From a virus: 64,000 bases of DNA. The notes beneath the pieces were generated by a model. It saw nothing but the letters and a program-made list of their open reading frames with translations, was not told the origin of the DNA and did no database searches. Shown piece after piece: positions 10,695-49,988 of the stretch. The stretch covers positions 128,001 to 192,000 of IMG/VR virus record IMGVR_UViG_3300045988_155520, one strand, 5' to 3'. Every line of letters begins with the position of its first letter. Within the stretch, counting starts at the first letter, position 1. The position numbers and the translations under genes were made by a program.

Positions 10695-10733
10695 TATCTA
10701 CATAAAATTAGTAGCATATATAAAATAAAAGTT

Positions 10734-26065: not shown

Positions 26066-26091
26066 AAAGGAGGTTTTCACACCTCCTTTTT
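26066..26091 (+). terminator. hairpin with T-run ending the short + strand unit
   Basis: aaaggaggt-tttcac-acctccttt followed by tt. It overlaps the last codons of the minus-strand endonuclease gene. Confidence 0.45.
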
Positions 26092-27789
26092 CCATATATA
26101 TCTAAACAAACCGCAGTCCCATATTTTATATGCACCAATTTCTTTCGTCATTTCATTCTCTGTTAATGATAAAGGTAAACCGTATTTCTTATGTAATTTA
26201 CTTTTTCTAAAATTGAATTTATGTAATCTATGTGTAGAACTGACTGACGGCATATAATAACGATAATCTGGCGGTAATGTTTTATCTAACTTAAATCCAA
26301 GTAATGTATATAAATTACTATCAGGCATTAATGTCCATCTTCTATCTGCAAATGTCTTGATAAAAGTAGGGTTATATGAATTAAAGAAATATTTAAACAT
26401 CTTTCCACCGATACCAGAACAATTATATTGAATATCACTTGCAAATCTGGTTAAATTCCAAGCATTATCATTCTCTTTCAAAAAAGACATAACACCAACT
26501 AATTTCTCATTAAAGAAACATCCTAAATAAATTGATGATGAAACAAACCCTTGTATATGGTTATTATTCAAAAATGTTTCCGCTACATTCTTATCAATCT
26601 CATTAATATAACACTTTCTACCGTAAATCTTAGGAAAATCCTTATTACATTTAACTATATGTAAAATTTTGTTTAAAACTAATTCTTTATTATTTATAAA
26701 TTCATCTTCAAAGATTGTTATCAAATTAATTCCTTTATCATTACATCTCTGTAATTTATCAAGATGATATGTCTTATCAACACCACATAATTCCGAATGC
26801 CATCTAATTCCATTATATTCTATTGCAATATTCAAAGACGGTATATAAATATCTAATTCTTTTCCATTAAGTACTTTTCTATCATGTCTAATAAATTCAA
26901 CAGATAAATGTTCTTCCAAAAAATTATAGATTTCAGTTTCTGCTTTTGAAACTAAATTAGCACATTTAGGACAACCACTTCCTCTTAAATGATTGCGTGG
27001 GTCTTGAGTAAATAAACCATGTGTAGGACAAACGATATTTACTAAATTCTTTCTATTGATATATCCAATATTTTCATAAGAATACTTATCGTTATGAATA
27101 ATATTAGCTTGATTAATAAAATCATCTGTTCTTTTTAATAAAGATAATTTACTCTTTTCAACTTCATTTAATTTGTTATTCTCAACCTTACATAGTGGAC
27201 ATCCATGACCTTTTAAATGTAATATTGGTAACTGATAAAAAAGACCATGTTCTTTACAAATTATAGCAATCTTTGTCCTTGCGTTAACATAATTAACTTT
27301 AGTGTAATCATACTTATCTCCATGAATTGTCTTAGCTTCTTGAATCCATGATTCAGTATCATAAGTCTTACAGAACTTACTATAACAAGAACATCCATGT
27401 CCAGCTAAATGACTATTAGGAAGTTGGTAGAATACATTACTACAATTCTTGCATATTATTTTTACTTTTGTCTTAGCATCCTTATAACATGCTTCTGAAT
27501 AATCATACTTATCTCCATGAACAGAAATTGCTTCAGAAATAAATTCTTCCGTTGTTTTTTTCTTTCTACCACCAGCATGAGGTGAGTTTGTGTGAATGAT
27601 TTTAATCTGTTCTATATTACTCTGTTTCCCTATCTTCTTCATAGGGATAGAATTATTCAACAGAATATTTTTAACTTTAACTTTTCCAATATGAAATTTA
27701 TCGGCAATATAATTGACACCATGATTTGTTGATGTATATATATTGCAAATCTCTTTTTCTTGTTCGGATGTTAAAGTAATCTTTTTCAT
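26077..27789 (-). CDS. free-standing homing-endonuclease-like protein (HTH, three Zn-ribbon repeats, Vsr/PD-(D/E)xK-like core and a C-terminal domain)
   Basis: The start is taken at MKKITLT (27789). Three repeats of ...HGDKYDYS..Y....K..I.C..HG.F.Q.P..HL.G.GCP.C are followed by ELDIYIPSLNIAIEYNGIRWHSE, a Vsr-like nuclease core. The hydrophobic 12-aa track extension reads through the promoter. Confidence 0.65.
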   Translation of the reverse strand: MKKITLTSEQEKEICNIYTSTNHGVNYIADKFHIGKVKVKNILLNNSIPMKKIGKQSNIEQIKIIHTNSPHAGGRKKKTTEEFISEAISVHGDKYDYSEACYKDAKTKVKIICKNCSNVFYQLPNSHLAGHGCSCYSKFCKTYDTESWIQEAKTIHGDKYDYTKVNYVNARTKIAIICKEHGLFYQLPILHLKGHGCPLCKVENNKLNEVEKSKLSLLKRTDDFINQANIIHNDKYSYENIGYINRKNLVNIVCPTHGLFTQDPRNHLRGSGCPKCANLVSKAETEIYNFLEEHLSVEFIRHDRKVLNGKELDIYIPSLNIAIEYNGIRWHSELCGVDKTYHLDKLQRCNDKGINLITIFEDEFINNKELVLNKILHIVKCNKDFPKIYGRKCYINEIDKNVAETFLNNNHIQGFVSSSIYLGCFFNEKLVGVMSFLKENDNAWNLTRFASDIQYNCSGIGGKMFKYFFNSYNPTFIKTFADRRWTLMPDSNLYTLLGFKLDKTLPPDYRYYMPSVSSTHRLHKFNFRKSKLHKKYGLPLSLTENEMTKEIGAYKIWDCGLFRYIWKKEV

Positions 27790-27794
27790 GTTTG

Positions 27795-27826
27795 CAAAGA
27801 TACAAATAAAAAATAAAAGAAACAAA
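27795..27826 (-). promoter_or_regulatory. Bacteroidota-type promoter only 5 nt from the ATG (near-leaderless)
   Basis: On the minus strand, TTTG lies at 27826..27823 and TATCTTTG at 27802..27795, followed by CAAAC and the ATG at 27789. Confidence 0.55.
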
Positions 27827-27854
27827 AAAGAGAGGAACTTTTGATTCCTCTCTT
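27821..27854 (-). terminator. rho-independent terminator after the major capsid gene
   Basis: On the minus strand, aagagaggaa-N7-ttcctctctt forms a 10-bp perfect stem followed by TTTTTTGTT. Confidence 0.8.
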
Positions 27855-27876
27855 AATATTTCGTAAACCTTTCGGC

Positions 27877-29901
27877 TTAGCGGAACTCAGAAATTGGCCA
27901 GTGTACGAGACCGTCAACACGAATGTGACCGTAGTAACGGTTGTTAACCATCTTCTTAGCATAACGGGTCATGATACCCTTAACAGGTGCAAAGTTGAAT
28001 GGGTTGAACATTGTAGGCGTCAAACTCATTGGTACATATGGTGCATAAATGTAACCAGTGTCAAGCAATGACTTACCCTTATGACCGATTATGATACTCC
28101 AGTGAGGTGCATATGGGTCACGATATACCTGATAACGACCACTCAAAGCACCGATGCGCTCGATACCCATGTTGTACTGGTCAGACTCAGCACTTGCGTC
28201 TGAAACGTGGAAGTACTCAAGGTTGTCGAAGAGTGCAGAAATCTCAGAAGAAACTACGATAAAGTTAGCACCACCACGAAGTGTTGACTTGTGAATCTGT
28301 GCAGAAATCTGATTTACCTTAGTCATCAACTCCTGATTCCAGTCTTTCTGTGTATAGTTAGTTGAGAATGCAGCCATACGTCTCCAGCCGTTAACATCCC
28401 AACGTGCCTGCCAAGGTGCACCCTTACGGAGGTCACGAAGAATCTCACGGTCAATCTCAGCAGCAATCTGCTCTGAAAGGATAGCTGTCAACTCAGCCTC
28501 AGCATCAATATTGTGGAATGCAGAAACGTCCTGTGCCAACTCTGGAGACCATGTTGCACGGAGTTTACGCTCCTCAACTGATACAGTAACTGCATCCATC
28601 TTGAATGAAACCTCACCAATTTCAGTCTCAAGTTCGAGTGAATCATACTGTGCCCAAGCTACCTTAAATAGCTGTGCCATATTTGCTTTGCTCTGAGTTT
28701 CATCATTAGCTACGATAGCAGCGTCTAACTCATCAGCATCAACACCTACATAGCCGTCAATTGTACCAGCCTGCTGTGCACATGTCTTAGCGAGGTCAAT
28801 CTCAATATACATCTTACCTTCAGCATCACAGATAGAACCGTACTCTACAATACCCTTACCATACTTCTGTGTAGCAACACGGAAAGGAACAGACTCATAC
28901 TTCTTGAAAGCTGCAGTCTTTACGTTACCACCAGCAATCTGCTTAGAAGCAATCTCTTTAGTTGTGATAACCTTGAGAGATGCGAGGAAGCCTTCTGTAT
29001 CCATCTCGTTACCATCAGGACCAGTTAAACGAGCTGCATTGAAAGCTGAGAAACCGTCAATCTGAAGAATAAGGTTACGGATTGTACCGTCAAAACCACT
29101 TCTCTCATACTCTTTAACGTTTGTACCTGTGAATGGACGCATACCAGCTGCAGTGCGAACTACAGGGAGTGCATTACCAACCTTAAGAGTTACCTTACCC
29201 TTAGAATTATCATAAAGGAAGTCATTGTAGAACAAGTCGTAAAGAGACTTCTCGAAGTACTCAGTTACCTCTGGACCAGCCTGACGAAGTGCCTCAACAC
29301 CAAGTTTAGCAGCCTTTGCTTTTGCAAGTGCAGCTGCATAAGTTGTACCCTGTGTATAATCCTCGCCCAACTGTGGTACATACCACTTCTCTTTATCCAA
29401 CTGTGATACAACCTCATCTGGCAAGTAGTAACGTGGCTCAACACGTCCTTCTCTATTGCGATTAACACGGTCATAGCCCATAAGACCCTTATGACGACCA
29501 GTAGTACCATCTACGATATCTGCTGGGTCCAACTGCTGTGCACCTGTAGGAAGTTCAAACTCTCTCTGTGATGTTACAGGAAGCAAGAAGAAGAGCTTAC
29601 CTACTGGGAGGTTCATAGCCTGAACTGATACAACATCGTTAGCAAGTAACTTGCTGAATACACGACGAATAATTGGGAAAACTACAGTTTCAAATGAACC
29701 AGAGTTATCTGAAGCAGTAGCCTCGCTAATAAGGTGCTTAGCCTCATTTTCATACAACGTAGCAACATTCTCTTTGATTGCACCCTCAAGACCCTCTGTA
29801 AAGCCGAGTGAGTCCCAACGCTTCTGAATGTCTTCACGTATCTTCTTTTGCATGTTCAGCTCGATATTGCCGACCTGACCGCTTGTTAAAAATTCTTTCA
29901 T
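27877..29901 (-). CDS. major capsid protein, T4 gp23 family
   Basis: Three segments parallel T4 gp23 as recalled: FPIIRRVFSKLLANDVVSVQAMNLPVGKLFFL; KLRATWSPELAQDVSAFHNIDAEAELTAILSEQIAAEIDREIL; and GRYQVYRDPYAP...GYIYAPYVPM...FAPVKGIMTRY. Confidence 0.9.
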   Translation of the reverse strand: MKEFLTSGQVGNIELNMQKKIREDIQKRWDSLGFTEGLEGAIKENVATLYENEAKHLISEATASDNSGSFETVVFPIIRRVFSKLLANDVVSVQAMNLPVGKLFFLLPVTSQREFELPTGAQQLDPADIVDGTTGRHKGLMGYDRVNRNREGRVEPRYYLPDEVVSQLDKEKWYVPQLGEDYTQGTTYAAALAKAKAAKLGVEALRQAGPEVTEYFEKSLYDLFYNDFLYDNSKGKVTLKVGNALPVVRTAAGMRPFTGTNVKEYERSGFDGTIRNLILQIDGFSAFNAARLTGPDGNEMDTEGFLASLKVITTKEIASKQIAGGNVKTAAFKKYESVPFRVATQKYGKGIVEYGSICDAEGKMYIEIDLAKTCAQQAGTIDGYVGVDADELDAAIVANDETQSKANMAQLFKVAWAQYDSLELETEIGEVSFKMDAVTVSVEERKLRATWSPELAQDVSAFHNIDAEAELTAILSEQIAAEIDREILRDLRKGAPWQARWDVNGWRRMAAFSTNYTQKDWNQELMTKVNQISAQIHKSTLRGGANFIVVSSEISALFDNLEYFHVSDASAESDQYNMGIERIGALSGRYQVYRDPYAPHWSIIIGHKGKSLLDTGYIYAPYVPMSLTPTMFNPFNFAPVKGIMTRYAKKMVNNRYYGHIRVDGLVHWPISEFR

Positions 29902-30030
29902 TAGTTAAATGAATTATTAATAATTATTTAATTTATTTCTTTTAAAAGAGTTTGAAATAATCAAAAGATTAAATCTTTATGAGTAAAACTCAATGGGATA
30001 ACTCATCATCCTCAGATTATATATTTGATT

Positions 30031-31440
30031 TTATACTCTACTTAATCTGTGCATTAAATCAAGAGATTCCAAAAGGTCTGCTGACTTATAAATTGGTGTC
30101 TCATTAATCTGCTTAGAACTTGTTGCACTGATATTAGCTGACTCTGTGATGTTCATCTTGTTAGCCTTTTTCAAGTTACGAGAAATATTCTCATACAAGT
30201 TCTTAGATTGTTCGATTGTTTTTGCCTCCTTGCCAAATCGTGCAATGATTTCCTTTTTCTCATCTTGAGATGTTGTATTTTCAGAAATCAACTTAATAAT
30301 TTGTCCAAGGTTGACATTTGTAACTGCTGCTTCCTGCAGAACTTTCTTGAACTTAACAAGAGTTTTCTTAAGTTCTTTATTCTCGTTGAAAATCTTATTA
30401 GCTTTACGAATAATTGATTCGTTAGTTTCACGAGATTCAGATTCTGCGCTGTAACGTGGTACAACAGTACCTTTACCAGAGTTACGAGCTTTTCTACCAC
30501 TTGAATTTGGTACGTGAGATTTAGAAGTTGAATTTTGCTGAACGAACCCACCTACGTTTGTAGCTTCCTCAATATCATCAGCATAAATTTCAAAAATTGT
30601 TTCATCTTTTGACTTCTTGCATCCCTCTGCAAATGGTTGATTCTCTGATTTACTATTCTTCTTACCAGACCAAGGTTTCTCTGAACCTTTAGATTTCAGT
30701 CCCTCAGAACCCCAATCTTTAGAATCCTTTTCATCTGCGACAGGAAGACCTTTAGTATCAAGTACATCATTCTTCTGGTAATTGTCAGTGTAACCTGCAT
30801 GTGAATCATACTCATTTAAAGCAAGTTCATAGATAGTTTCATTTGACTCATTTACACCAGATTCATTACCCATGTCAATAAGGTATTCAGCGCCAGTCTC
30901 ATTATCTTTCAGACTAACCTTGTTATCATCACCCTTATTAACCATAACCTGGTCATCGTCAGACAGCAATTTGTAAACTTTTACGATTTCATCGTCATCC
31001 GCTTCTGAGAAGTCATACTCATCATCTCCGACCTTATACTTTTCAAATGATGCCCATTCGTCACCATCTTCATCTGTACCGTTTTCAACTTTCTCAACCT
31101 CATCACCAGCACCCTCTGGTGTTACAGTAACATCTACAGTTGTATCGTCATCATCGGTATCAGAAGAACTTTCTGTGTCATCTTCAACTTGAGTTTCCTC
31201 AGTATCAGAATCATCCTCAGCATCATCTGCTGCCAGAGCTGCAGTATCTTCCACTTCCTCTTTATCATACTCATCCTCATCTTCCTCAGCGAGGATTCTT
31301 GCGTATGTATCACGTACTGTTTCAGAAAGAATATCCTTCACAGCATTTTCCGTATTTTCTTTCAGAGTTTGTGCAAGATTGTTATAACTCTCTAAAGAGT
31401 CTTTAACAGCTTTGCCTCTAATGTTATTAGTTTTCTTCAT
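30031..31440 (-). CDS. acidic scaffold-like (gp22-position) protein
   Basis: 469 aa with very Asp/Glu-rich N-terminal and central regions. It lies immediately upstream of the capsid gene, as gp22 does in T4. No sequence motif supports the call. Confidence 0.45.
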   Translation of the reverse strand: MKKTNNIRGKAVKDSLESYNNLAQTLKENTENAVKDILSETVRDTYARILAEEDEDEYDKEEVEDTAALAADDAEDDSDTEETQVEDDTESSSDTDDDDTTVDVTVTPEGAGDEVEKVENGTDEDGDEWASFEKYKVGDDEYDFSEADDDEIVKVYKLLSDDDQVMVNKGDDNKVSLKDNETGAEYLIDMGNESGVNESNETIYELALNEYDSHAGYTDNYQKNDVLDTKGLPVADEKDSKDWGSEGLKSKGSEKPWSGKKNSKSENQPFAEGCKKSKDETIFEIYADDIEEATNVGGFVQQNSTSKSHVPNSSGRKARNSGKGTVVPRYSAESESRETNESIIRKANKIFNENKELKKTLVKFKKVLQEAAVTNVNLGQIIKLISENTTSQDEKKEIIARFGKEAKTIEQSKNLYENISRNLKKANKMNITESANISATSSKQINETPIYKSADLLESLDLMHRLSRV

Positions 31441-31482
31441 TCTATCAAAACGAAATTAATACGTTATTTTTATTATAAATAT

Positions 31483-31650
31483 ATCAATCTTTTTAAAAAT
31501 TATCTGTAAAGTAAGGTATTACATACAGTGAACTACACTTTTTTTAAAAAATTATGTGCTTCGGGCTTCACAGAGGAATGGTCTTTCGAAAGATTGACTC
31601 TTACTTCCTCTCCACCCGTGTAATCGACAGTCCCTGCCGATATGTTATTA
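31483..31650 (-). ncRNA. candidate omega (re)RNA scaffold region of TnpB (inferred by position only)
   Basis: In characterised TnpB loci the guide RNA scaffold overlaps the 3' end of tnpB and the right end. Here only 92 nt separate the tnpB stop from the next ATG. A stem-loop lies at 31504..31528. Confidence 0.3.
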
Positions 31651-32840
31651 TTTAATCCGATACGAAGAATGTTAATTGCTGCATTCACATCACGGTCATG
31701 ATGCGTGTGACAAACTGGACATTCCCATTCTCGAACTGACAAATCTTTTATATCTTTGTTTACATACCCACAGACATTGCAAGTCTGAGAGGATGGGAAG
31801 TATCGGTCTACCTTAACAACCTTCTTGTCATTCCATTCTGCCTTATAGGTAAGCATGGAAACAAATTTACCCCAACTTGCATCAGTAATGGACTTGGCAA
31901 GACGATGATTTTTTGTCATACCCTTAACATTCAAATCCTCTATGCAGATAGTGTCATATCTTCTTACAAGAGAAATAGAACACTTATGCAGATAGTCGGC
32001 ACGACTATTGCTAATCTTCTCATAAAGTCTGGCAACTTTGAGTTTTTGGTTTTCAAACCCTCGGCTGCCTTTCTTCTTGCGAGAAAGATGCTGCTGCGCC
32101 TTAGCAAGTCTGCGTTCATATTTCTTCGTGTATCGGTTATTTTTAAAAGTTTCTCCTTCAGAAGTGATAAGCAAGTCCTTCAAACCCAAATCAACACCTA
32201 CAGACTTGCCCGATTTTTCAATTGGTGTAATGTATTCCTCTTCCATGAATACGGAAACGAAATACTTGTCGCTTGGTGTCTTGGAAATAGTTACCTTCCC
32301 TATTTTACCTTTTATCTCACGGTGAATACGGCACTTAATACCCTCCTTGAACTTGGGTATGAAAATCCTGTTTTCTGCGATAGAAGCGAATTGTGGTACG
32401 GTAAAACTATCCTTGGAATGCTTAGATTTGAATTTGGGAAACTTTGCACGCTTCTTAAAGAAGTTTTTATAGGCTGTATCAAGTGAACGAAGAGCAAACT
32501 GCAAGGATTGGGAATTTACTTCATTCAGCCATGCAGTTTCTTCCTGTTTCTTCATTTCAGTAAGACGCTTTGCTTGTTCGTAGTAATTATCACTCTTACC
32601 AGTTAGTCTATATTGTTCTTTACGCTCATTGAGAAAGGTGTTGTAAACATAGCGAGTACATCCGAAGTGCTTTGTCAGCAATTCGATTTGCCCCTTATTC
32701 GGTAGCAGTTTAAACCTATATGTCCTATTAATCTTTCTCATTTCACTTATAAATACAATAATAAATATTGTAAAATACAAAAAAAATTACAATAAATATA
32801 ATGTCTTACATTCCATAAACTTAAGAATTATGGATTTTAA
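31490..32840 (-). mobile_element. IS200/IS605-family element carrying only tnpB (boundaries approximate)
   Basis: An intact tnpB without an adjacent tnpA. Candidate subterminal hairpins lie at 32812..32834 (tccataa-N9-ttatgga) and 31504..31528 (ctgta..gtaa-tacc-ttac..tacag on the minus strand). G+C looks higher than in flanking DNA. Confidence 0.55.
31533..32741 (-). CDS. tnpB: TnpB (RNA-guided RuvC nuclease, OrfB_IS605 plus Zn ribbon)
   Basis: MRKINRTYRFKLLPNKGQIELL start. The RuvC triad is in context: VGVDLGLKD, ICIEDLNVKGM and HDRDVNAAINI. The zinc ribbon is CNVCGY...CPVCHTHH. The track's MYFTIFIIVFISE extension is rejected. Confidence 0.9.
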   Translation of the reverse strand: MRKINRTYRFKLLPNKGQIELLTKHFGCTRYVYNTFLNERKEQYRLTGKSDNYYEQAKRLTEMKKQEETAWLNEVNSQSLQFALRSLDTAYKNFFKKRAKFPKFKSKHSKDSFTVPQFASIAENRIFIPKFKEGIKCRIHREIKGKIGKVTISKTPSDKYFVSVFMEEEYITPIEKSGKSVGVDLGLKDLLITSEGETFKNNRYTKKYERRLAKAQQHLSRKKKGSRGFENQKLKVARLYEKISNSRADYLHKCSISLVRRYDTICIEDLNVKGMTKNHRLAKSITDASWGKFVSMLTYKAEWNDKKVVKVDRYFPSSQTCNVCGYVNKDIKDLSVREWECPVCHTHHDRDVNAAINILRIGLNNNISAGTVDYTGGEEVRVNLSKDHSSVKPEAHNFLKKV

Positions 32841-32905
32841 GGTACATTAAATAAATTAAGAGATTAATATAATATTTATTATTATATTATTAAATAATGT
32901 AAATT

Positions 32906-33622
32906 ATGAATAAGAAGACAGAATTAGTTGAAATTAAAAAAGACAAAACAGGAACAGGTCTATTGATAGAACAAGATGGTTTTGTACAATTAAATAAAAA
33001 AGATTTCACAAAAACAGTTAATGAAAGTAAAGACGGAAATGAATGGCATTGTCCTTATCCTTTCATTGTAGATGCTGTATTTCAAAAATATGACATCAAG
33101 AATGCTAATGGAAGAATTTATCCAGAAAAGGTGCTAAAGAAACAAGTGGAAATCTACCAGAAAAAAATAGAAGAACATCGTGCATATGGAGAATGTAATC
33201 ACCCTACTGAAAGTACTATCGACCTTGGTCGTATATCTCATAATATTATAGAACTACATTGGGAAGGTCATACTCTTGTAGGAAAGATGGAGTTAAATAT
33301 AACTGAGGGTTTCCGTAGACATGGTATGTGTACATCTTTTGGTGATACTATAGCAAATATGTTACTTAATGGTTATAAACTTGGCGTATCATCAAGAGGT
33401 GTTGGTTCTGTTGAGGAAAAACTTGGTCAATACATTGTTGGAGATGATTTTGAATTGATTTGTTGGGATGTTGTTTCAGACCCTTCAACACCTATGGCAT
33501 ATATTTCTACAGACGGTCCTGAAGGATTAGAGACTTATATTGAAAGTAAAAATAATAATCCTCTCAATAAAAAGATTGTTTCAGAAAAGATTAATAGAAT
33601 TAATAAAATTTTATCAGAGTAA
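32906..33622 (+). CDS. prohead core protease, T4 gp21 family
   Basis: NANGRIYPEKVLKKQV, GECNHP (catalytic His context), GVSSRGVGS (catalytic Ser context) and WDVVSDPSTPMAY parallel T4 gp21 as recalled. The gene is on the opposite strand to the rest of the head genes. Confidence 0.85.
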   Translation: MNKKTELVEIKKDKTGTGLLIEQDGFVQLNKKDFTKTVNESKDGNEWHCPYPFIVDAVFQKYDIKNANGRIYPEKVLKKQVEIYQKKIEEHRAYGECNHPTESTIDLGRISHNIIELHWEGHTLVGKMELNITEGFRRHGMCTSFGDTIANMLLNGYKLGVSSRGVGSVEEKLGQYIVGDDFELICWDVVSDPSTPMAYISTDGPEGLETYIESKNNNPLNKKIVSEKINRINKILSE

Positions 33623-33625
33623 TTT

Positions 33626-34306
33626 ATGAAAAAAATTGTTTTAACTGAAAATCAATTATCTAATCTTTCTAAACATATTTTGCAAGAAAGAACTTTCGAA
33701 GATATGTATTACGATTATACCGAAAATTTTGACGTAGAAAATGTATTTCAGAATTTCTTAGATAATCCTAATGGAGTACAGTCATGGACACCGCTGATTG
33801 ATGCAAATTCTTACAAACAAGCATTGCAAGAATTTACTAAATATGGACAATTTATTAACTTCCCAACAAAACTTCTTTATCAGTGGGTAGGAATTTTGTT
33901 AAGAAATACAATGCAGTTAGATTATAATACAATTTTAGCTGGTCATACACAATCTAATCCATATGTATATCTTTCTGAAGAATTTGATTATATGGTTGAA
34001 GAATTAGGTAAAACAGAATGTAATGGTGTTGATATTACAGATATCGGTGAACATAATATATATGATAAACTTGAGGAAATGGGTTTGTATGACTGGTTGA
34101 AGCTTCCCGATGGTTCTGATGCATGGAGTGATTTTGGTCTAAAACCTATTTACAATCATTTGAAAGAATATGATTCGTCAATGCCACCAGAGAAAGTTAT
34201 AGTTTTAATTAACAAAGTGCTGGATGTTTATCATCAAAGAGGTGACTTAGCTTCGGCATTTATTGAAGGTGGAAGAAGTACTTTAACACAAATTTCCAAC
34301 ACATAA
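33626..34306 (+). CDS. hypothetical protein with an N-terminal LTE module
   Basis: MKKIVLTENQLSNLSKHILQE start. Appears co-transcribed with the protease gene. Confidence 0.55.
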   Translation: MKKIVLTENQLSNLSKHILQERTFEDMYYDYTENFDVENVFQNFLDNPNGVQSWTPLIDANSYKQALQEFTKYGQFINFPTKLLYQWVGILLRNTMQLDYNTILAGHTQSNPYVYLSEEFDYMVEELGKTECNGVDITDIGEHNIYDKLEEMGLYDWLKLPDGSDAWSDFGLKPIYNHLKEYDSSMPPEKVIVLINKVLDVYHQRGDLASAFIEGGRSTLTQISNT

Positions 34307-34313
34307 CATAAAA

Positions 34314-34345
34314 AATAGCGAGATTTAATTGTCTCGCTATTTTTA
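34314..34345. terminator. bidirectional rho-independent terminator
   Basis: aatagcgaga-tttaattg-tctcgctatt forms a 10-bp perfect stem flanked by A-run and T-run. Confidence 0.75.
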
Positions 34346-34495
34346 TTATACTTCATTATCATCATCATCTCCAAATGGCTCGTAGTTATTTAAAACATCA
34401 TCAAAATTCTCATCATTTTCAATAACTTCTTTAACTACATTCTTAACCAAACTTTGTAAATCATCTTCGGTTAATTTAACTATTCTTTTTGTCAT
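34346..34495 (-). CDS. small acidic protein (49 aa) with a strong N-terminal KLTE module
   Basis: Hand translation gives MTKRIVKLTEDDLQSLVKNVVKEVIENDENFDDVLNNYEPFGDDDDNEV*. It is below the track cutoff. Confidence 0.5.
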   Translation of the reverse strand: MTKRIVKLTEDDLQSLVKNVVKEVIENDENFDDVLNNYEPFGDDDDNEV

Positions 34496-34498
34496 AAT

Positions 34499-34927
34499 CT
34501 ATTTTACTTTTGAAACAGAAAAATCATTATTTTCTAAACATTCTACAAGATTATCAGATACGTTACCAATACATTCAGAAAGTTCGTCATTTAATTCTTT
34601 TAAATTAACACAATCTGTCTGCTTAGCAAAAATATCGAATGAAAGAAACTTCTTATGTCCATACTTCATAGCACTTGGATTTATATCAAACTCAAAAATC
34701 ATTCCTCTTTCAAATCTTCCTGTTGATATAAGTCGATTTTTAAATTCTTTTTTATATTTGTTAAGAATAAAAGACATAGCATCATCATAATTCCCCTCAT
34801 ACATAGGAGTAATCCATGTTCTTCCATTAATATATACAACTTTCGGATTTTCCCTATTCATTGTGCCGTATTTCAATGTAACCTTGTCAGAAACATTTAA
34901 TTTAATTTCTTTGACCATCTTTTTCAT
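34499..34927 (-). CDS. hypothetical head-module protein (gp68-like by position only)
   Basis: 142-aa ORF between the portal and protease genes. Confidence 0.5.
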   Translation of the reverse strand: MKKMVKEIKLNVSDKVTLKYGTMNRENPKVVYINGRTWITPMYEGNYDDAMSFILNKYKKEFKNRLISTGRFERGMIFEFDINPSAMKYGHKKFLSFDIFAKQTDCVNLKELNDELSECIGNVSDNLVECLENNDFSVSKVK

Positions 34928-34983
34928 AAACTATATCCCTTTATTAAAAGGTAAAGTAAAAAATAAGAAAGTCAAATTAGAAA

Positions 34984-35913
34984 TTAATCTTTGTCTTTTA
35001 AAACATCACAAATTTCTATCAGTTTAGCCAAATCACGGACTATTGTTTCAGAAGAATACTGCATACCCTGTATTTGTTCCTCTAAACGTTTTAAGTTATC
35101 TAATTCTTCAGAATCCTCTGTAACTGATAACAATTTACCAATCTCCGTTAAACTTTCATTCTTAAACTTATCTAACAACTTTTCACGCTTGGTATCAGCA
35201 TTCTTATTACGTATATTAGTTATATCCATAACAAGGCTTCTTTCGTCTTCATTAAGTTTATCTTTAAAAGTATTGTTGAAGTTATTAAACATTTCATCCA
35301 AATCAATCTTATCTGGATTAGTCGCACGATGTTCGTTAATGTAGTTACTAACAGTCATTAAACTATCAGATAATTTATTAATATTGGATAAGTTTTCACG
35401 TTTGGTTAACAAAGTATTACAACTCTCAAAGAAACGTCTTTTTTCATAAGATAATTTATCAGAAGGATATATTTCATTATCTTTCAAAAGTTTCGCTAAT
35501 TTAGCATTTGACTCTTTAATTGTCTTTTTATCCAGTTTACCTTCCGTGAGATTTAATGCCGTTCTTACAAAAGATGTACTGTCTGTAACACCATTATAAC
35601 CACGCAAAGCATTATAAAATTGGAATTGAGAAAGCAGATTCTTATCTTCTTTAATGGTACGCATAACACGTCCAACCAGTTTTCTATCTTTCTTAAATAA
35701 TTCTGGAAGTTCACTTTCAAAAATATGATTTAAAATACCAAAATTATTACCTTTATACTCATTTTCCATTTCCTGCTGTTTCAAAGCTACAGATACAGTA
35801 TCTTCAAATAATTCCACAGCATGATTATAAGTTTCAAAATCCTTTTTATCTAAAGATTCCTTTATAATTTTTATAAAATTATCTACCTTTTTATTGTATT
35901 CTGATTTTTTCAT
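34984..35913 (-). CDS. hypothetical head-module protein
   Basis: 309-aa helical, charged ORF directly downstream of the portal gene. Confidence 0.55.
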   Translation of the reverse strand: MKKSEYNKKVDNFIKIIKESLDKKDFETYNHAVELFEDTVSVALKQQEMENEYKGNNFGILNHIFESELPELFKKDRKLVGRVMRTIKEDKNLLSQFQFYNALRGYNGVTDSTSFVRTALNLTEGKLDKKTIKESNAKLAKLLKDNEIYPSDKLSYEKRRFFESCNTLLTKRENLSNINKLSDSLMTVSNYINEHRATNPDKIDLDEMFNNFNNTFKDKLNEDERSLVMDITNIRNKNADTKREKLLDKFKNESLTEIGKLLSVTEDSEELDNLKRLEEQIQGMQYSSETIVRDLAKLIEICDVLKDKD

Positions 35914-35950
35914 TTGTATAACATGTTTTACCTAAATAAATAGTATAAAT

Positions 35951-35985
35951 AAACAAAAAGATGATGCTATAAAAACATCATCTTT
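35951..35985 (-). terminator. rho-independent terminator after the portal gene
   Basis: On the minus strand, aaagatgatg-N9-catcatcttt is followed by TTTGTTT. Confidence 0.65.
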
Positions 35986-35992
35986 TTAAAAT

Positions 35993-38650
35993 TTATTCAT
36001 TATCGTTCACTAAATTATCCAAAGAAGATATCATCTTATCAAATTCTTCATTAATCAATAAAGATTTATCATAGATATTTGCTCTTTCATAAGAAATTTC
36101 TTCAGCCTTCTTTTCCTTTCTATCAATACAATTAAGATATTCTTCAAATAGTGTATCTAATTTTTTATCACTATTTTTCTTCATCGCCTTTAATGTATTT
36201 TCAGTAATAAGAGGTTTTTTCTTATTTACAGATTCCATTGGAGTGCCTCCTGATTCTGGACCGCTACTTCCTGGTGCTTCGCCTCCTGGAGGTGCACCAG
36301 CATCACCACCCATGTCTCCTGTAGGCATTGAACCTTCTTCTCCTCCAATATCACCCATATCATCAGACCCAGGTGCACCGAGTGAATCAAGACCTCCACC
36401 GAAGTCTCCTCCGCCACCCATAGAGCCACCTCCCATGCCACTATCAGGACCTCCTTGTTGTGGTTGGTCATCCATGTATTCTGCTCCTGGTTCTCCATAT
36501 ATTCTATCGACTGTATCAAATAAACCAGTACGCTTGATGATTTGAGTTGTCTTTTCAAGTTCTGCGGAAATACCTTTCTCAAGACGTATCTCTTCAAGAT
36601 TTTCTTTAATCTCTTTGTCAGACCACTTCATAATAGTCTTTAATGCCTTTGCTTGAGACATAACAGGAATACCACCACCAGGGTCTGAAACGGCATCTCT
36701 AACAGCAGTAATCTTCTTCTCTATATTATCAATCTCAAGTGACTCTGCTTGAGTTGATGGGTTATTCATTGTAAGTGAGAAATTAGTTAATTCATCACTA
36801 AAACCAAGTAAGAATAAGTGAATGGATGCAACCTTAGTTAACTCCATTAAGAACGCCTGCTGAACTCTATTAACTGTTCTTGTGAAACGTATATCCATTA
36901 AAGCAAGATTCTTTCCGTCACCAGCAGTCTCTTCAAAATTAAGGAATGTTTTAGGTATTCTCAATGCCGTCAAAACCTTATTCTGAACAAACTTGATATC
37001 ATCCATCGCTGTCAAATTCTGCGCTGCTGACAAGGTATCAATAGGTGTTGGCGCATTCTGGTCTCTTACAGGGATAAAGATATCTTGGTCTACACAGTTG
37101 CTAACAAAACATCCATTTTCACACCAAGTTTTATCGGAATTGATTGAACGTATAGCAAAGTTGTGTCTATCTTCTTCACTATTAGGACCTTGTACGGTCA
37201 TACAATACACATCGTCTCCACCTATGATATCAACTTTTCTTATAAAGCGTAATTTCATAACTTCTACAGGGTCTGATTCGTTTTTACTTGAATCATTAAG
37301 AGTTACTTTTCTATATGATTTAGAAGAAATATCTAATACTCTATCGTAATCAGTATCATCTCTGTAGAAAGGCATTACACTTTCACCCACACTAACTTCA
37401 TCTGCTCTCTTCTTAGAACCATCACGCATTATGAGTTCGTGTTCACCAGCTAAATCTAAATATGTATCATCATCTAATGTTATACGATATAATTTATCTG
37501 CAGTGTAGTTTTTACCACACCAAACAACTTTTCCTGGTACAATTTTATGAGTATCATCTTGTACAGAATATACAAAATTTTCTTCACCATTTTCATACTC
37601 TTTTGCAAGATTCTCTATTGTTATAGTGCGTCCATCCAGCAAAGGAATTGGCGTATCTTTATGAACTGGGAGAATATTCTTTCTCAAATCCACTTGACCT
37701 GTCATTGGGTCAATAATAGGCGTTCTCTTAAAGTTATTAGCAATTTCTTCAACGTAAGCTGGTACATCAGCATCGTCAATAGCACCTACAAATATCTTAT
37801 ATACACGTCTTTCAATAGAACGTTCCAGACGATAGATAAGCATCATATCTTCCATTAAACTAAGCATACGCCAATGTCTACGAGCTGAATTTAAATAAGA
37901 AACGCCATAAGGAAGATACATAGAATTTGTTAACAGTCTAAAATGTGCAATCTGCCAATCTCTAAATGGAACTTGCGACTGGCTATCATCTAACCAGACA
38001 AATTTAGTAGACATATCAGAATTGGTATCTGTATTATTAGCTGCAACAGTGGAATATCCTGTTGAATATGGATTAGTAATACCGTTTTCTATACGTTCAA
38101 CATTAAATACAGGTAAACGTTTCCATCCTTTAACACCTAACTTATGGTCTATATCCAGCATCATATAATCATTTCCATATTTACACATGCCACGTATAAC
38201 CATTTGTGCTGTTAATTGTAAATTTAAACGATTAGTAAATAAATCTTCAAGAATACTTTTAACTCTATCTGATTTAGAATATACATTTACTATATTTCCT
38301 GTATCTGAAGGTAAACAGCTTTCTTCTGAAACAATATCAAGTGCAGCGCCTATTTCTGGAAATGAATCCATCAAATCGGCATCACGATACATCAACTTAA
38401 CATTATTAAGTCCTGAATAGGCACTTACATTTAAATCAACGTTAGCTTTAACCCATCTATTTTCAAGATATTTATTTTGTTGTAATTCTAATTTTACTTT
38501 TTCATAATTATCTTTATCGTTGGTTTGGTATATAACACCATTACCAGACATATCATAGTTATTGATATGTCTTGCCATTGTGTCCTGTGTATTCCAGTTA
38601 CCAGTTATAGCTTTATCTAATTGTTGAAAAACAGTTAATTTATTGGCCAT
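35993..38650 (-). CDS. portal protein, T4 gp20 family, with an inserted mini-intein and a Gly/Asp/Pro-rich C-terminal extension
   Basis: SYLNSARRHWRMLSLMEDMMLIYRLERSIERRVYKIFVG...DQDIFIPVRD...LTALRIPKTFL matches the gp20 pattern. aa 328..518 form a Hint domain. aa 729..803 or so are low-complexity G/D/P. Confidence 0.85.
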   Translation of the reverse strand: MANKLTVFQQLDKAITGNWNTQDTMARHINNYDMSGNGVIYQTNDKDNYEKVKLELQQNKYLENRWVKANVDLNVSAYSGLNNVKLMYRDADLMDSFPEIGAALDIVSEESCLPSDTGNIVNVYSKSDRVKSILEDLFTNRLNLQLTAQMVIRGMCKYGNDYMMLDIDHKLGVKGWKRLPVFNVERIENGITNPYSTGYSTVAANNTDTNSDMSTKFVWLDDSQSQVPFRDWQIAHFRLLTNSMYLPYGVSYLNSARRHWRMLSLMEDMMLIYRLERSIERRVYKIFVGAIDDADVPAYVEEIANNFKRTPIIDPMTGQVDLRKNILPVHKDTPIPLLDGRTITIENLAKEYENGEENFVYSVQDDTHKIVPGKVVWCGKNYTADKLYRITLDDDTYLDLAGEHELIMRDGSKKRADEVSVGESVMPFYRDDTDYDRVLDISSKSYRKVTLNDSSKNESDPVEVMKLRFIRKVDIIGGDDVYCMTVQGPNSEEDRHNFAIRSINSDKTWCENGCFVSNCVDQDIFIPVRDQNAPTPIDTLSAAQNLTAMDDIKFVQNKVLTALRIPKTFLNFEETAGDGKNLALMDIRFTRTVNRVQQAFLMELTKVASIHLFLLGFSDELTNFSLTMNNPSTQAESLEIDNIEKKITAVRDAVSDPGGGIPVMSQAKALKTIMKWSDKEIKENLEEIRLEKGISAELEKTTQIIKRTGLFDTVDRIYGEPGAEYMDDQPQQGGPDSGMGGGSMGGGGDFGGGLDSLGAPGSDDMGDIGGEEGSMPTGDMGGDAGAPPGGEAPGSSGPESGGTPMESVNKKKPLITENTLKAMKKNSDKKLDTLFEEYLNCIDRKEKKAEEISYERANIYDKSLLINEEFDKMISSLDNLVNDNE
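37097..37669 (-). mobile_element. mini-intein (Hint domain, no endonuclease domain) in the portal gene
   Basis: Block A-like PVHKDTPIPLLDGRTITIENL; block B-like LDLAGEHELIM; block F DDVYCMTVQG..RHNFAI; block G NGCFVSN followed by +1 Cys (CVDQDIF). Confidence 0.7.
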
Positions 38651-49957: not shown

Positions 49958-49988
49958 CTTGACAAGCGTATAAAATACATTATCTTTT
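49958..49988 (+). promoter_or_regulatory. degenerate Bacteroidota-type promoter (cTTG-N19-TATCTTTT)
   Basis: TATCTTTT at 49981..49988, 19 nt upstream of the clp-like ATG. Both the -33 element and the final G are imperfect. Confidence 0.3.

What the first reader, a model, noticed from the sequence alone, without database searches (positions are those of the whole stretch)
31483..32840. Solo TnpB (RNA-guided nuclease) element between the scaffold and protease genes of the phage head module
A 402-aa TnpB has an intact RuvC triad (VGVDLG, IEDLN, HDRDVNAA) and a CxxC...CxxC ribbon. It lies between the gp22-position scaffold gene and the gp21-like protease gene, and no tnpA is present anywhere in the window. 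It appears more G+C-rich than its surroundings.

Only 92 nt separate its stop from the next ATG. Any omega RNA scaffold must therefore overlap the 3' end of tnpB, and the guide would fall next to, or inside, the scaffold gene's upstream region. A stem-loop lies at 31504..31528 and an AT-rich upstream motif at 31469..31482. A copy of the same AT-rich motif found upstream of other phage genes sits 14 nt before the tnpB ATG (32756..32768), so the element may be wired into the phage transcription programme.

An active TnpB in a lytic-type phage could act as a homing or retention nuclease against TnpB-less competitor phages, or it could have been recruited for regulation.
Basis: partly seen in the sequence, partly recalled or inferred. 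Interest (0 to 1): 0.7.

Follow-up and report, generated by a model that had tools for sequence, protein, structure and literature searches.

The report
TnpA-less TnpB guide-RNA element in phage
A small selfish DNA element that encodes an RNA-guided nuclease (TnpB) but no transposase sits between two head genes of an uncultured human-mouth phage. Its guide RNA matches the unoccupied version of that site in sibling phages, so it is set up to copy itself from phage to phage like a gene drive.

Summary
Window 31533..32741 (-) encodes an intact 402-aa IS200/IS605 TnpB (about 45% identical to ISDra2 TnpB, with D184/E268/D351 aligned to its D191/E278/D361). No cognate tnpA is in the 64 kb.

I mapped the whole element to 31528..32850 (1,323 bp). 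It comprises a TTTAT TAM at 32851..32855, a left end with an intact hairpin, tnpB, and a 113-nt omega-RNA scaffold (31528..31640) overlapping the gene's 3' end. The scaffold fold (four stems; three-pair pseudoknot varies on one side only) is supported by covariation in 62 relatives. The guide is 31527..31508.

All 16 sibling-phage contigs holding this site lack the element and carry the exact protospacer, preceded by TTTAT in 10 and TTAAT in 6. The window is in turn the empty allele for two relatives' insertions.

The best reading is a non-autonomous IS605-family element positioned for RNA-guided homing between co-infecting phages. That activity is inferred, not shown.

Caveats:
- The right-end hairpin (omega-RNA stem 4) is the weakest of 62 copies.
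- No co-conversion tract is visible.

TnpB in phages is common (427 GenBank phage records), so this is a new member of a known kind. It does offer an informative natural population for testing phage-to-phage homing. Interest is moderate.

The parts
32851..32855 (-). TAM (transposon-adjacent motif) TTTAT, the last 5 nt of phage flank before the left end
   Evidence: TTTAT ends 11-12 nt before the conserved TAAAA of the left end in 26 of 28 genuine upstream contexts across the family. It occurs only 5 times at other offsets in those 60-nt stretches. Coordinates.
32742..32850 (-). Left end (LE). It begins TTAATGTACCTTAAAATCC, then has the subterminal hairpin CCATAAT-TCTTAAG-TTTATGG at 32813..32833, then GAATGTAAG. 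It holds two ATATTTAT motifs (32761..32768, 32792..32799). The host-type -7 box TAnnTTTG seen in relatives is lost.
   Evidence: Alignment with tnpA-less phage copies and with the LE of full IS copies. The hairpin keeps pairing through a compensatory CAC/GTG to CAT/ATG change (sequence read directly). Motif statistics.
31533..32741 (-). tnpB, 402 aa. RuvC residues are D184, E268, D351. Zn ribbon is C321/C324/C341/C344.
   Evidence: dN/dS over codons 1-365 is 0.08-0.11 against nine relatives.
31528..31640 (-). Omega-RNA scaffold, 113 nt. Stem 1 is 31634..31640 with 31624..31630. The pseudoknot pairs loop GGA (31631..31633) with UUC (31530..31532). Stem 2 is CGGGU/GCCCG and stem 3 is GAGGAA/UUCCUC. 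It ends ...GUAGUUCAC at 31528, which is the right end (RE) of the element.
   Evidence: RE boundary from 5 and then more than 60 copies that all diverge after TAGTTCAC. RNAalifold gives 27 pairs, 19 with compensatory changes. 95.8% of cells are paired and 178 cells carry double changes against 40.8 in shuffles (0/500); slid controls give 29-50%. The architecture parallels ISDra2 omega-RNA (PMC10097598).
31535..31559 (-). RE subterminal hairpin, which is omega-RNA stem 4. It is degenerate here: GCACAUAAUUUUUUAAAAAAAGUGU.
   Evidence: MFE is -1.0 kcal/mol, the weakest of 62 copies, shared only with L149a. tnpA-adjacent copies average -12.95 and tnpA-less copies -8.87. It is not predicted in the single-sequence fold.
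31508..31527 (-). Predicted guide, TGTATGTAATACCTTACTTT (the 16-nt core is 31512..31527). It is phage flank immediately 3' of the RE.
   Evidence: Position follows from the RE boundary. The exact 24-mer, preceded by TTTAT or TTAAT, is present in all 16 element-free sibling contigs. The 14 other 16-mer matches in IMG/VR lack the TAM.
31441..31507 (-). Retained upstream region of the scaffold-position gene, holding AAAAAGATTGATATATTTATAAT (ATATTTAT at 31475..31482)
   Evidence: Nearly identical in the empty alleles. The motif is enriched 25-64 nt upstream of 8 phage genes.
30031..31440 (-). Acidic 469-aa ORF in the gp22 (scaffold) position, a flanking phage gene
   Evidence: No Pfam or PHROG hit. 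97% identical in siblings.
32906..33622 (+). Prohead protease (Peptidase_S77), a flanking phage gene on the divergent strand
   Evidence: 99-100% identical in siblings L002-L012.

Best explanation
Window 31528..32850 is a non-autonomous member of the IS200/IS605 family, of the tnpB-only type sometimes called IS1341-like. It lies in the divergent protease/scaffold intergenic region of an uncultured T4-like phage of about 250 kb from the human mouth. The host is probably Prevotellaceae.

Shown:
- It has a TTTAT TAM, a left end with a hairpin, an intact tnpB, and a covariation-supported omega-RNA scaffold overlapping the gene's 3' end.
- The sequence immediately after the right end, which by the family's rule is the guide, is identical to the unoccupied allele in every sampled sibling phage. 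There it is preceded by the TAM.

Inferred mechanism:
- tnpB is transcribed, possibly from a phage-type ATATTTAT promoter that replaced the host-type -7 box.
- TnpB binds the 3' part of its own transcript as omega-RNA.
- In a cell co-infected by an element-free sibling phage, the complex recognises TTTAT plus TGTATGTAATACCTTA and cuts.
- The highly recombinogenic T4-type replication machinery repairs the break from the occupied genome. This copies in the element and removes the 84-nt spacer.
- This is transposon non-restorative homing, a gene drive that needs no TnpA.
- The occupied allele is immune because TTCAC, not TTTAT, precedes the guide-matching sequence.
- Original entry, and the TAM-to-TAM deletion beside the element, probably needed a Y1 TnpA supplied in trans by full IS copies such as those in Prevotellaceae genomes.

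Confidence in identity and anatomy is about 0.95. Confidence that homing is, or recently was, active in this phage population is about 0.5.
For: Identity:
- Family and catalytic-residue evidence.
- Ends and TAM.
- Omega-RNA covariation and similarity to ISDra2.

The element is derived and polymorphic:
- 10 sibling contigs (protease 99-100% identical, scaffold about 97%) have a 224-nt intergenic region in place of the window's 1,465 nt.
- 16 contigs in all carry the TAM plus the exact protospacer and none is occupied.
- The occupied allele is on 4 assemblies.

Reciprocal pattern:
- The window is the empty allele, TTTAT|protospacer, for sibling insertions at 49969/49970 and 35996/35997.

The family is alive:
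- 43 of 47 distinct complete copies at >=75% identity have intact ORFs.
- Core dN/dS is 0.08-0.11. Synonymous divergence drops 2- to 6-fold in the RNA-overlap tail.
- Against L149a, which shares the degenerate hairpin, the core dN/dS is 0.105. The scaffold is 94.7% identical against 84.2% for the coding core.

Target specificity:
- The guide has no other TAM-adjacent match in IMG/VR.

Deletion derivatives still place the new guide next to a TAM in empty alleles:
- Window 84 nt; L160 24 nt.

Precedent:
- TnpB drives IS spread through plasmid populations (PMC11870625).
- Homing into co-infecting phages is proposed as theoretically possible (PMC13565253).
Against: - No expression, RNA or cleavage data exist.
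- Omega-RNA stem 4, which contacts the WED domain in ISDra2 (PMC10097598), is nearly unpaired in this copy: -1.0 kcal/mol, the weakest of 62. The complex could be impaired.
- Flanks within 300 nt differ from siblings by only 0.3-1.7%, with almost no private SNPs. No co-conversion tract marks a homing event.
- No copy more than 85% identical was found in over 100 related loci. The immediate donor is unsampled, and entry could be a one-off TnpA event from a host copy.
- The insertion is not clean, since 84 nt are missing.
- 16 of 16 sampled JGI/IMG alleles are empty, so no sweep is evident.
- Purifying selection is measured along element lineages, not within this phage.
Confidence: 0.55

Rival explanations
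1. Inert passenger. A host IS605-family copy was dropped once into replicating phage DNA by host TnpA. It lost the ability to move because it has no tnpA and its RE hairpin is degenerate. It is carried neutrally until it decays, and TnpB does nothing in the phage.
For: - The RE hairpin is nearly gone.
- There is no tnpA.
- There is no co-conversion signal.
- All 16 sampled alleles in JGI collections are empty.
- A few family copies do carry premature stops: L174, L176, L190.
- The host-type -7 promoter box is lost.
Against: - The ORF and all catalytic and Zn residues are intact.
- The lineage sharing the degenerate hairpin (window plus L149a, dS 0.78) still shows dN/dS 0.105 and a 94.7% conserved scaffold. 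Function therefore outlived the hairpin.
- Sibling phages each carry several intact tnpA-less copies at different sites. That is hard to explain by repeated dead-end hits.
- Deletion derivatives keep TAM-adjacent guides.
Confidence: 0.25
2. TnpA-in-trans transposon. The element still moves by peel-and-paste using Y1 TnpA from full IS copies in the host chromosome or co-resident phages. TnpB/omega-RNA serves only the classical restorative role, re-cutting the donor site after excision. Polymorphism among phages then reflects transposition, not phage-to-phage homing.
For: - Full tnpA+tnpB copies with about 80% similar ends exist in Prevotellaceae MAGs (L082-L084) and in viral contigs.
- The LE hairpin and TAM are intact.
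- Junctions and adjacent deletions fall exactly 3' of TTTAT, as Y1 chemistry predicts.
- A second family member sits after a different TTTAT in the same intergenic region (L242).
Against: - The RE hairpin that TnpA must bind is the weakest in the family here. It is relaxed in tnpA-less copies generally: -8.87 against -12.95 kcal/mol.
- No tnpA was found in the window or in the T4-like sibling loci examined.
- This rival explains arrival but not the long-term purifying selection on tnpB in tnpA-less lineages. It is not exclusive of the homing model.
Confidence: 0.15
3. Domesticated function for the phage. Either it is a TldR-like RNA-guided repressor of the scaffold/capsid operon or of host genes, or it is a weapon kept by the phage to destroy competitor genomes rather than to spread the element.
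For: - The element lies directly upstream of, and co-oriented with, the scaffold and capsid genes.
- The LE carries phage-type ATATTTAT motifs.
- The target exists only in competitor siblings.
Against: - The catalytic triad is intact, unlike TldR.
- The self allele lacks the TAM, so the complex should not bind its own promoter region.
- No TAM-adjacent target was found other than the empty allele.
- The competitor-killing variant is mechanistically the same as homing and differs only in who benefits.
Confidence: 0.05

Closest known systems
ISDra2 TnpB/omega-RNA of Deinococcus radiodurans (PDB 8exa, 8h1j; Karvelis 2021, Nakagawa 2023)
   Same: - About 45% identical protein, E 1e-87, with the same D/E/D triad and Zn ribbon.
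- The omega-RNA overlaps the gene's 3' end.
- The scaffold is 113 nt here against 116 nt.
- It has a stem-1 loop to 3'-end pseudoknot, internal stems, and a guide-proximal stem 4.
- A 5-nt T-rich TAM lies 5' of the target.
   Different: - The TAM is TTTAT, not TTGAT.
- There is no adjacent tnpA.
- Stem 4 is degenerate.
- It resides in a virulent-type phage rather than a chromosome.
Full IS605-family copies in Prevotellaceae MAGs (L082-L084) and the tnpB-only copy in Parabacteroides phage PF672P2 (OP172820)
   Same: - TnpB is 79-85% identical.
- LE and RE consensus, TAM and omega-RNA are the same.
   Different: - L082-L084 carry a divergent 134-aa Y1 tnpA and a perfect RE hairpin.
- They have a host-type TAnnTTTG -7 box upstream of tnpB, which the window copy has lost.
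- PF672P2 is an unrelated 61-kb phage.
Free-standing homing endonuclease genes of T-even phages (SegF, SegB, Mob; 'intronless homing')
   Same: - Intergenic selfish gene between conserved structural genes.
- Present or absent among close relatives.
- The target is the unoccupied allele of a co-infecting phage (review PMC13565253).
- The same window also holds an HNH homing endonuclease gene and a portal intein.
   Different: - Recognition would be by a guide RNA plus a 5-nt TAM rather than by protein.
- Self-immunity comes from insertion itself, through loss of the TAM.
- Specificity is rewritten automatically by whatever follows the right end.
IS200/605 TnpB gene drive in multicopy plasmids (Mears et al. 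2025, PMC11870625)
   Same: The proposed logic is identical. TnpB cuts IS-minus copies of a multicopy replicon and biases inheritance of IS-plus copies, without needing TnpA for that step.
   Different: That case was shown experimentally in E. coli plasmids. Here it is only inferred from natural phage population polymorphism.
TldR (nuclease-dead TnpB-like RNA-guided transcription factors, some phage-encoded)
   Same: A TnpB-derived protein with a 3' guide RNA encoded in a phage.
   Different: - TldR has lost RuvC catalytic residues and targets host promoters.
- This protein keeps all three, and its only TAM-adjacent target is the empty phage allele.

Membership tests
IS200/IS605 TnpB RNA-guided nuclease | Domain architecture: N-terminal HTH/WED-REC, split RuvC, Zn-ribbon (TNB) | tested here: met
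   - Pfam PF12323, PF01385 and PF07282.
- NCBIfam NF038281 IS200_TnpB scores 466 bits against a cut-off of 425.
- phrog_506, E 1e-137.
IS200/IS605 TnpB RNA-guided nuclease | RuvC catalytic D-E-D aligned with experimentally defined residues | tested here: met
   D184, E268 and D351 align with ISDra2 D191, E278 and D361 in the phmmer alignment to 8h1j (numbering offset +2).
IS200/IS605 TnpB RNA-guided nuclease | Structured omega-RNA scaffold at the 3' end of tnpB, ending at the transposon right end | tested here: met
   Family level:
- 27-28 pairs, 95.8% of cells paired.
- 18 pairs with compensatory change, 0/500 shuffles as good.

Window copy:
- It forms 26 of the 28 consensus pairs by my column-by-column reading of alignment A2 (one search did not print this copy's count).
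- Stems 1-3 appear in the single-sequence fold.
IS200/IS605 TnpB RNA-guided nuclease | Guide-proximal stem 4 / RE hairpin intact | tested here: inconclusive
   - Only the outer pairs remain. MFE is -1.0 kcal/mol, the weakest of 62, and the stem is absent from the MFE fold.
- Whether the complex tolerates this is unknown.
IS200/IS605 TnpB RNA-guided nuclease | Conserved TAM immediately 5' of the left end, and the same motif 5' of the guide-matching sequence in unoccupied sites | tested here: met
   - TTTAT is at a fixed offset in 26 of 28 independent LE contexts.
- TTTAT precedes the protospacer in 10 of 16 empty alleles, and TTAAT in 6.
- TTTAT precedes the sibling guides' matches in the window.
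IS200/IS605 TnpB RNA-guided nuclease | RNA-guided, TAM-dependent DNA cleavage | not testable with these tools
   Needs a biochemical or in-cell assay.
Autonomous IS605-type insertion sequence (tnpA + tnpB) | Y1 (HUH) TnpA transposase gene within the element | tested here: not met
   - tblastn with the cognate TnpA (from L082) gives no hit in the window at E<=1.
- Only 109 nt lie between the TAM and the tnpB ATG.
- The Pfam scan of the other ORFs shows no transposase among its 25 listed families; 27 more matched families were not shown.
Autonomous IS605-type insertion sequence (tnpA + tnpB) | Subterminal hairpins at both ends for TnpA binding | tested here: not met
   The LE hairpin is present (6 bp, with a compensatory change). 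The RE hairpin is degenerate.
TldR (nuclease-dead TnpB-like regulators) | Loss of RuvC catalytic residues | tested here: not met
   All three residues are present and aligned.
IStron (group I intron fused to IS605/IS607) | Group I intron ribozyme at the 5' side of the element | tested here: not met
   The Rfam E-value scan of 31000..33200 found only chance-level hits (best E 2.5) and no intron family.
Homing genetic element (functional class) | Presence/absence polymorphism at one locus among close relatives, with an intact target in empty alleles | tested here: met
.
Homing genetic element (functional class) | Co-conversion tract of donor markers flanking the insertion | tested here: inconclusive
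   No excess of private SNPs within 300-1500 nt of either junction. This is expected if donor and recipient were near-identical, so it does not decide the question.

The most novel reading that the evidence does not exclude
A clade of roughly 210-250-kb T4-like human oral phages hosts a population of tnpA-less TnpB/omega-RNA elements. These would spread horizontally between co-infecting phages by RNA-guided homing, a natural phage gene drive.

Its footprints would be:
- Reciprocal occupied/empty alleles with TAM plus protospacer.
- Loss of the TnpA-binding RE hairpin while tnpB and the rest of the omega-RNA stay under selection.
- Replacement of the host-type promoter by a phage motif.
- 'TAM-to-TAM' flank deletions that retarget the guide to a new TAM-adjacent site.
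- TTTAT to TTAAT TAM-escape alleles at intermediate frequency in empty genomes.
Probability: 0.35. Interest if true: 0.75.

Novelty: new member of a known kind. Interest (0 to 1): 0.5.

Why it matters
TnpB genes are very common in phages: 427 of about 50,700 GenBank phage records match this protein. What they do there is mostly unstated. Phage-to-phage 'non-restorative homing' has been proposed on theoretical grounds and shown only for plasmids.

This locus, with its 16 empty sibling alleles and the reciprocal insertions elsewhere in the same genomes, is a compact natural test case. The guide, TAM, target and donor are all defined to the base.

If homing is active, three things follow:
- It would explain how transposase-less TnpB elements persist in lytic phages.
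- It would add an RNA-guided class to the homing endonucleases that shape T4-like genome mosaicism.
- It would supply a TTTAT-TAM TnpB from a human-associated Bacteroidota system.

If homing is not active, the locus documents how an IS605 element decays: the RE hairpin goes first, and tnpB and the scaffold last.

Tried and rejected
- Rfam (E-value mode) on 31000..33200 gave no omega-RNA, intron or other family, only chance hits.
- The sigma-70 promoter and terminator scan was uninformative. The likely host is Bacteroidota, whose promoters the scan does not cover. Hits were near shuffle expectation and no terminators were found.
- My first MAFFT alignments of empty and occupied intergenic regions mis-split the spacer, so I first read it as 41-43 nt. 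Direct inspection around the exact protospacer shows 84 nt (against 34).
- A fuzzy-regex search for empty sites timed out. I replaced it with exact-match and BLAST approaches.
- The co-conversion test showed no signal.
- I searched the 16-nt guide core across IMG/VR for other targets. The 14 extra matches are at about the chance level (my rough estimate, not computed), and none has a TTTAT TAM.
- I considered that the 84-nt spacer in empty alleles might be a relic of an older element, because it ends ...ATTCAC and contains TTTTTTAAAAA like the window's RE. I rejected this as unsupported. The sequence is low-complexity, the T/A-run motif recurs in other intergenic regions of the phage, and the outgroups L013/L014 have an unrelated 43-nt spacer.
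- I considered that the inversion of the protease gene might be caused by the element. I rejected this because the inversion is shared by all element-free relatives L002-L048.
- PHROGs and Pfam give no family for the 'scaffold' ORF.
- I did not build a covariance model. The RE-end and hairpin pattern searches already showed no second RE in the window.
Full report
**1. The observation**

The minus strand of 31533..32741 encodes a 402-aa protein from the first ATG; a TTG 13 codons upstream would give 415 aa. Pfam finds HTH_OrfB_IS605, OrfB_IS605 and Cas12f1-like_TNB. NCBIfam's IS200_TnpB model scores 466 bits against a cut-off of 425.

Against solved structures, the best natural match is ISDra2 TnpB (8h1j, 8bf8/8exa; E about 1e-87). 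In that alignment VGVD184LG, IE268DLN and HDRD351VN fall on D191, E278 and D361, and both CxxC pairs are aligned.

The stop-to-next-ATG gap is 92 nt. Neighbours are as follows.
- A gp23-type capsid gene at 27877..29901 (-).
- An acidic 469-aa ORF in the scaffold position at 30031..31440 (-), with no family hit.
- A Peptidase_S77 prohead protease at 32906..33622, on the + strand. The site is therefore a divergent intergenic region.

tnpB is 39.0% G+C against 31.3% for the window, but the capsid gene is richer still.

I took the cognate Y1 TnpA sequence from full IS copies in relatives. tblastn with it finds nothing in the window at E<=1. A Pfam scan of 53 other ORFs shows no transposase among its 25 listed families (27 further matched families were not shown). 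tblastn with TnpB finds only this one copy.

**2. Source and relatives**

The identical protein is on four assemblies. The one shown is a 250,705-bp human oral metagenome contig with the same gene order. The capsid protein is at most 41% identical to any GenBank phage, so this is an uncultured, distant T4-like lineage.

At DNA level, the only GenBank phage match to 27000..37000 is the element itself, 80% identical to a tnpB-only copy in the unrelated Parabacteroides phage PF672P2. The closest bacterial copies (77-82% over the full protein, 85% in the best segment) are in Prevotellaceae MAGs.

Host-type Bacteroidota -7 boxes (TATCTTTG) occur upstream of several window genes. A Prevotellaceae host is therefore likely, but this is inference.

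**3. Anatomy of the element**

*Right end.* More than 60 copies share sequence up to ...GTAGTTCAC and diverge immediately after it. In the window this is base 31528. Homology to element-free sibling phages resumes at 31527.

*Left end.* Full copies and tnpA-less copies share, in order:
- TTTAT;
- about 11 nt;
- TAAAAC(C);
- a hairpin, CCACAAG-TCTTTAG-CTTGTGG;
- GATGTAAG.

TTTAT ends 11-12 nt before TAAAA in 26 of 28 genuine flank contexts, and is almost absent at other offsets. In the window the TAM is 32851..32855 and the element starts at 32850. The LE hairpin (32813..32833) is kept with a compensatory change. The element is therefore 31528..32850, 1,323 bp.

Relatives with tnpA carry it divergently between the LE hairpin and tnpB. 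The window copy, like all copies in the T4-like siblings, lacks it.

**4. Omega-RNA**

I aligned the last 200 nt of 62 copies (51-100% protein identity). RNAalifold predicts 27 pairs, 19 with compensatory changes. I added the pseudoknot suggested by the ISDra2 structure, in which the stem-1 loop pairs with nucleotides -5 to -3 (PMC10097598).

With the pseudoknot included:
- 95.8% of 1,736 pair-cells are standard pairs, against 83.6% in shuffles.
- 178 cells carry double changes, against 40.8 (0/500 shuffles as good).
- Slid controls give 29-50%.
- The pseudoknot's middle pair is G-U, A-U or G-C and never A-C.

The scaffold is 113 nt (31528..31640), close to ISDra2's 116 nt.

Coding-sequence evolution shows the overlap:
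- dN/dS is 0.08-0.11 over codons 1-365, with dS 0.65-1.04.
- In the tail, dS falls to 0.13-0.42 and dN/dS rises to 0.26-1.15.

The stem-loop at 31504..31528 is not part of it. That stem-loop is phage flank plus one element base, at -5.7 kcal/mol and z -2.5.

**5. A weak point**

The guide-proximal hairpin is both the TnpA-binding RE hairpin and omega-RNA stem 4. In most copies it is an 8-10-bp stem with loop UCUUUAG. In the window it reads GCACAUAAUUUUUUAAAAAAAGUGU.

Its MFE is -1.0 kcal/mol, the weakest of 62 and shared only with L149a. tnpA-adjacent copies average -12.95 and tnpA-less copies -8.87. The single-sequence fold recovers stems 1-3 but not stem 4.

Two readings are possible.
- The hairpin is mainly constrained by TnpA and is dispensable once TnpA is gone.
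- This omega-RNA is impaired.

The window and L149a have diverged to dS 0.78, yet they keep core dN/dS at 0.105 and a scaffold 94.7% identical, against 84.2% for the coding core.

**6. Empty alleles and the guide**

Ten IMG/VR sibling contigs (protease 99-100% identical, scaffold about 97%) have 224 nt between the scaffold and protease starts, where the window has 1,465 nt. The 24 nt after the RE occur exactly in those 10 contigs and in 6 metagenome contigs. None is occupied at this site.

In all 16 the sequence is preceded by a TAM position reading TTTAT (10) or TTAAT (6). The 16-nt guide core has 14 other exact matches in IMG/VR. That is about the chance level (my rough estimate, not computed), and none follows TTTAT. 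The occupied allele has TTCAC in the TAM position, so it should be immune.

The relation is reciprocal. The window carries TTTAT|ACGCTTGTCAAG... at 49969/49970 and TTTAT|TCATTATCG... at 35996/35997. These are the empty alleles of family insertions present in siblings L150/153/157/160 and L164. A third site, matching L224, does not show a TAM.

Each sibling genome carries two or more copies of this family at different intergenic sites, plus more distant tnpBs. Of 47 distinct complete copies at >=75% identity, 43 are intact.

**7. The insertion is not clean**

In the empty alleles, 84 nt lie between the TTTAT that forms the window's left junction and the protospacer. The protospacer itself follows another TTTAT. 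The window lacks those 84 nt. The outgroups L013/L014 have an unrelated spacer of about 43 nt there, so the deletion is derived.

The same pattern recurs.
- L160 differs from L150 by a 24-nt deletion next to the RE that ends exactly after TTTAT.
- L150 lacks 18 nt ending in TTTAT relative to the window.
- A different family member in L242 sits after a third TTTAT in the same intergenic region.

I see two explanations, both inferences.
- Y1-transposase chemistry joins the RE 3'-OH to DNA 3' of another TAM, giving an adjacent deletion.
- Survivorship: only deletions that bring a TAM-adjacent sequence next to the RE keep the element homing-competent.

**8. Transcription**

ATATTTAT occurs 31 times in the window, against 18.7 +/- 3.8 expected. 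In the -70..-15 regions of 60 phage genes it occurs 8 times in sense orientation, against 1.3 expected (0/2000 shuffles). It lies 25-64 nt upstream of eight genes, including the scaffold and protease genes.

The window's LE has two copies, 27 and 58 nt before the tnpB ATG. At the position where relatives have TAnnTTTG, the host-type -7 box, the window has TGTATTTATAAG.

The scaffold gene keeps its own motif in the 87 nt between the RE and its ATG. The insertion therefore need not disturb it.

**9. Mechanism and rivals**

The best explanation is a non-autonomous IS605-family element configured for RNA-guided homing into element-free sibling genomes during co-infection. This follows the logic shown for plasmids (PMC11870625) and proposed for phages (PMC13565253).

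Evidence against activity:
- Stem 4 is degenerate.
- No co-conversion tract is visible. Flanks are 0.3-1.7% divergent with almost no private SNPs.
- The donor is unsampled; no copy is more than 85% identical.
- There is no sign of a sweep.

Rivals:
- An inert passenger.
- Mobility through TnpA supplied in trans, with only classical restorative use of TnpB.
- Domestication as a regulator or weapon. The regulator version is contradicted by the intact triad and the lack of other targets.

**10. Comparison and verdict**

By every sequence criterion this is a TnpB/omega-RNA element of the IS200/IS605 family. It fails the definition of an autonomous IS605, having no tnpA and a degenerate RE hairpin. 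It is neither a TldR nor an IStron.

TnpB homologues occur in 427 GenBank phage records, so a phage TnpB is not new. What is useful here is the fully resolved population picture: TAM, guide, empty alleles, reciprocal insertions, retargeting deletions and possible TAM-escape alleles.

Novelty: new member of a known kind. Interest 0.5. The most novel reading is a natural phage gene drive, at probability about 0.35 and interest 0.75 if true.

Noticed in passing
window 35993..38650 (-): The T4-type portal gene (gp20) is interrupted by an intein. Pfam Intein_splicing matches residues 335-489 and splits the Portal_T4 match in two.
   Followed up: no
window 26077..27825 (-): A free-standing HNH homing endonuclease gene (phrog_559, E 2e-113; DUF723) lies directly downstream of the major capsid gene. 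With the intein and the TnpB element, the head module holds three selfish elements.
   Followed up: partly
window 28550..29600 (inside the capsid gene 27877..29901): The central part of the 674-aa gp23-like capsid gene has 3-12% window-private substitutions against nine sibling contigs, compared with 0-1% in the rest of the gene. This is a mosaic or hypervariable inserted domain.
   Followed up: partly
window 49969/49970 (- strand) and 35996/35997 (+ strand): The window carries the empty alleles (TTTAT followed by the protospacer) of two other insertions of the same TnpB family. These are occupied in siblings L150/L153/L157/L160 and L164/L008. The protospacers differ from those guides at 3 positions each.
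   Followed up: yes
L230-L245, the 5 nt before the protospacer TGTATGTAATACC: Six of 16 element-free alleles have TTAAT instead of the TAM TTTAT, on at least three local haplotypes. It is the most frequent polymorphism in that 110-nt stretch. These may be TAM-escape alleles.
   Followed up: partly
L242 (QWCL01000012.1), about 60 nt before the protospacer: A different member of the family (RE ...GTGTAGTCCAT) is inserted after another TTTAT in the same protease/scaffold intergenic region. This makes the region an insertion hot spot.
   Followed up: partly
L160 against L150/L153/L157; the window against L230-L245: Deletions flanking the element end exactly 3' of a TTTAT: 24 nt at the L160 RE and 84 nt at the window site. 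Each deletion gives the element a new TAM-adjacent guide.
   Followed up: partly
L004, L005, L006, L009, L012 (about 10240..11320 in locus coordinates); L002 88..1167; L014 261..1340: Sibling phages carry other tnpB genes, 37-44% identical to this one. Some lie between the orf142 and orf309 homologues, others beyond the capsid gene. The window is empty at the orf142/orf309 site (34928..34983).
   Followed up: no
window, upstream of genes starting at 4777(-), 20499(-), 24879(-), 31440(-), 32906(+), 42342(-), 44736(-), 49872(-): ATATTTAT(A/T)(A/T)T lies 25-64 nt upstream of eight genes (8 observed against 1.3 expected). It is probably a phage promoter element, and its core TATTTATA is the reverse complement of the T4 late -10 box TATAAATA. 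Host-type TATCTTTG boxes precede the genes at 6823(+), 49379(-) and 52837(+).
   Followed up: partly
window 32906..34306 (+) compared with L049, L052, L055-L060: The protease gene and the ORF after it are inverted relative to the scaffold and capsid genes in this clade. They are collinear in more distant relatives. The inversion is independent of the TnpB element.
   Followed up: partly
L158, L193, L191, L086 (upstream of tnpB): Short remnants of tnpA remain next to tnpB, for example residues 101-134 plus 1-14 in L158. tnpA has therefore been lost repeatedly by internal deletion in this family.
   Followed up: no
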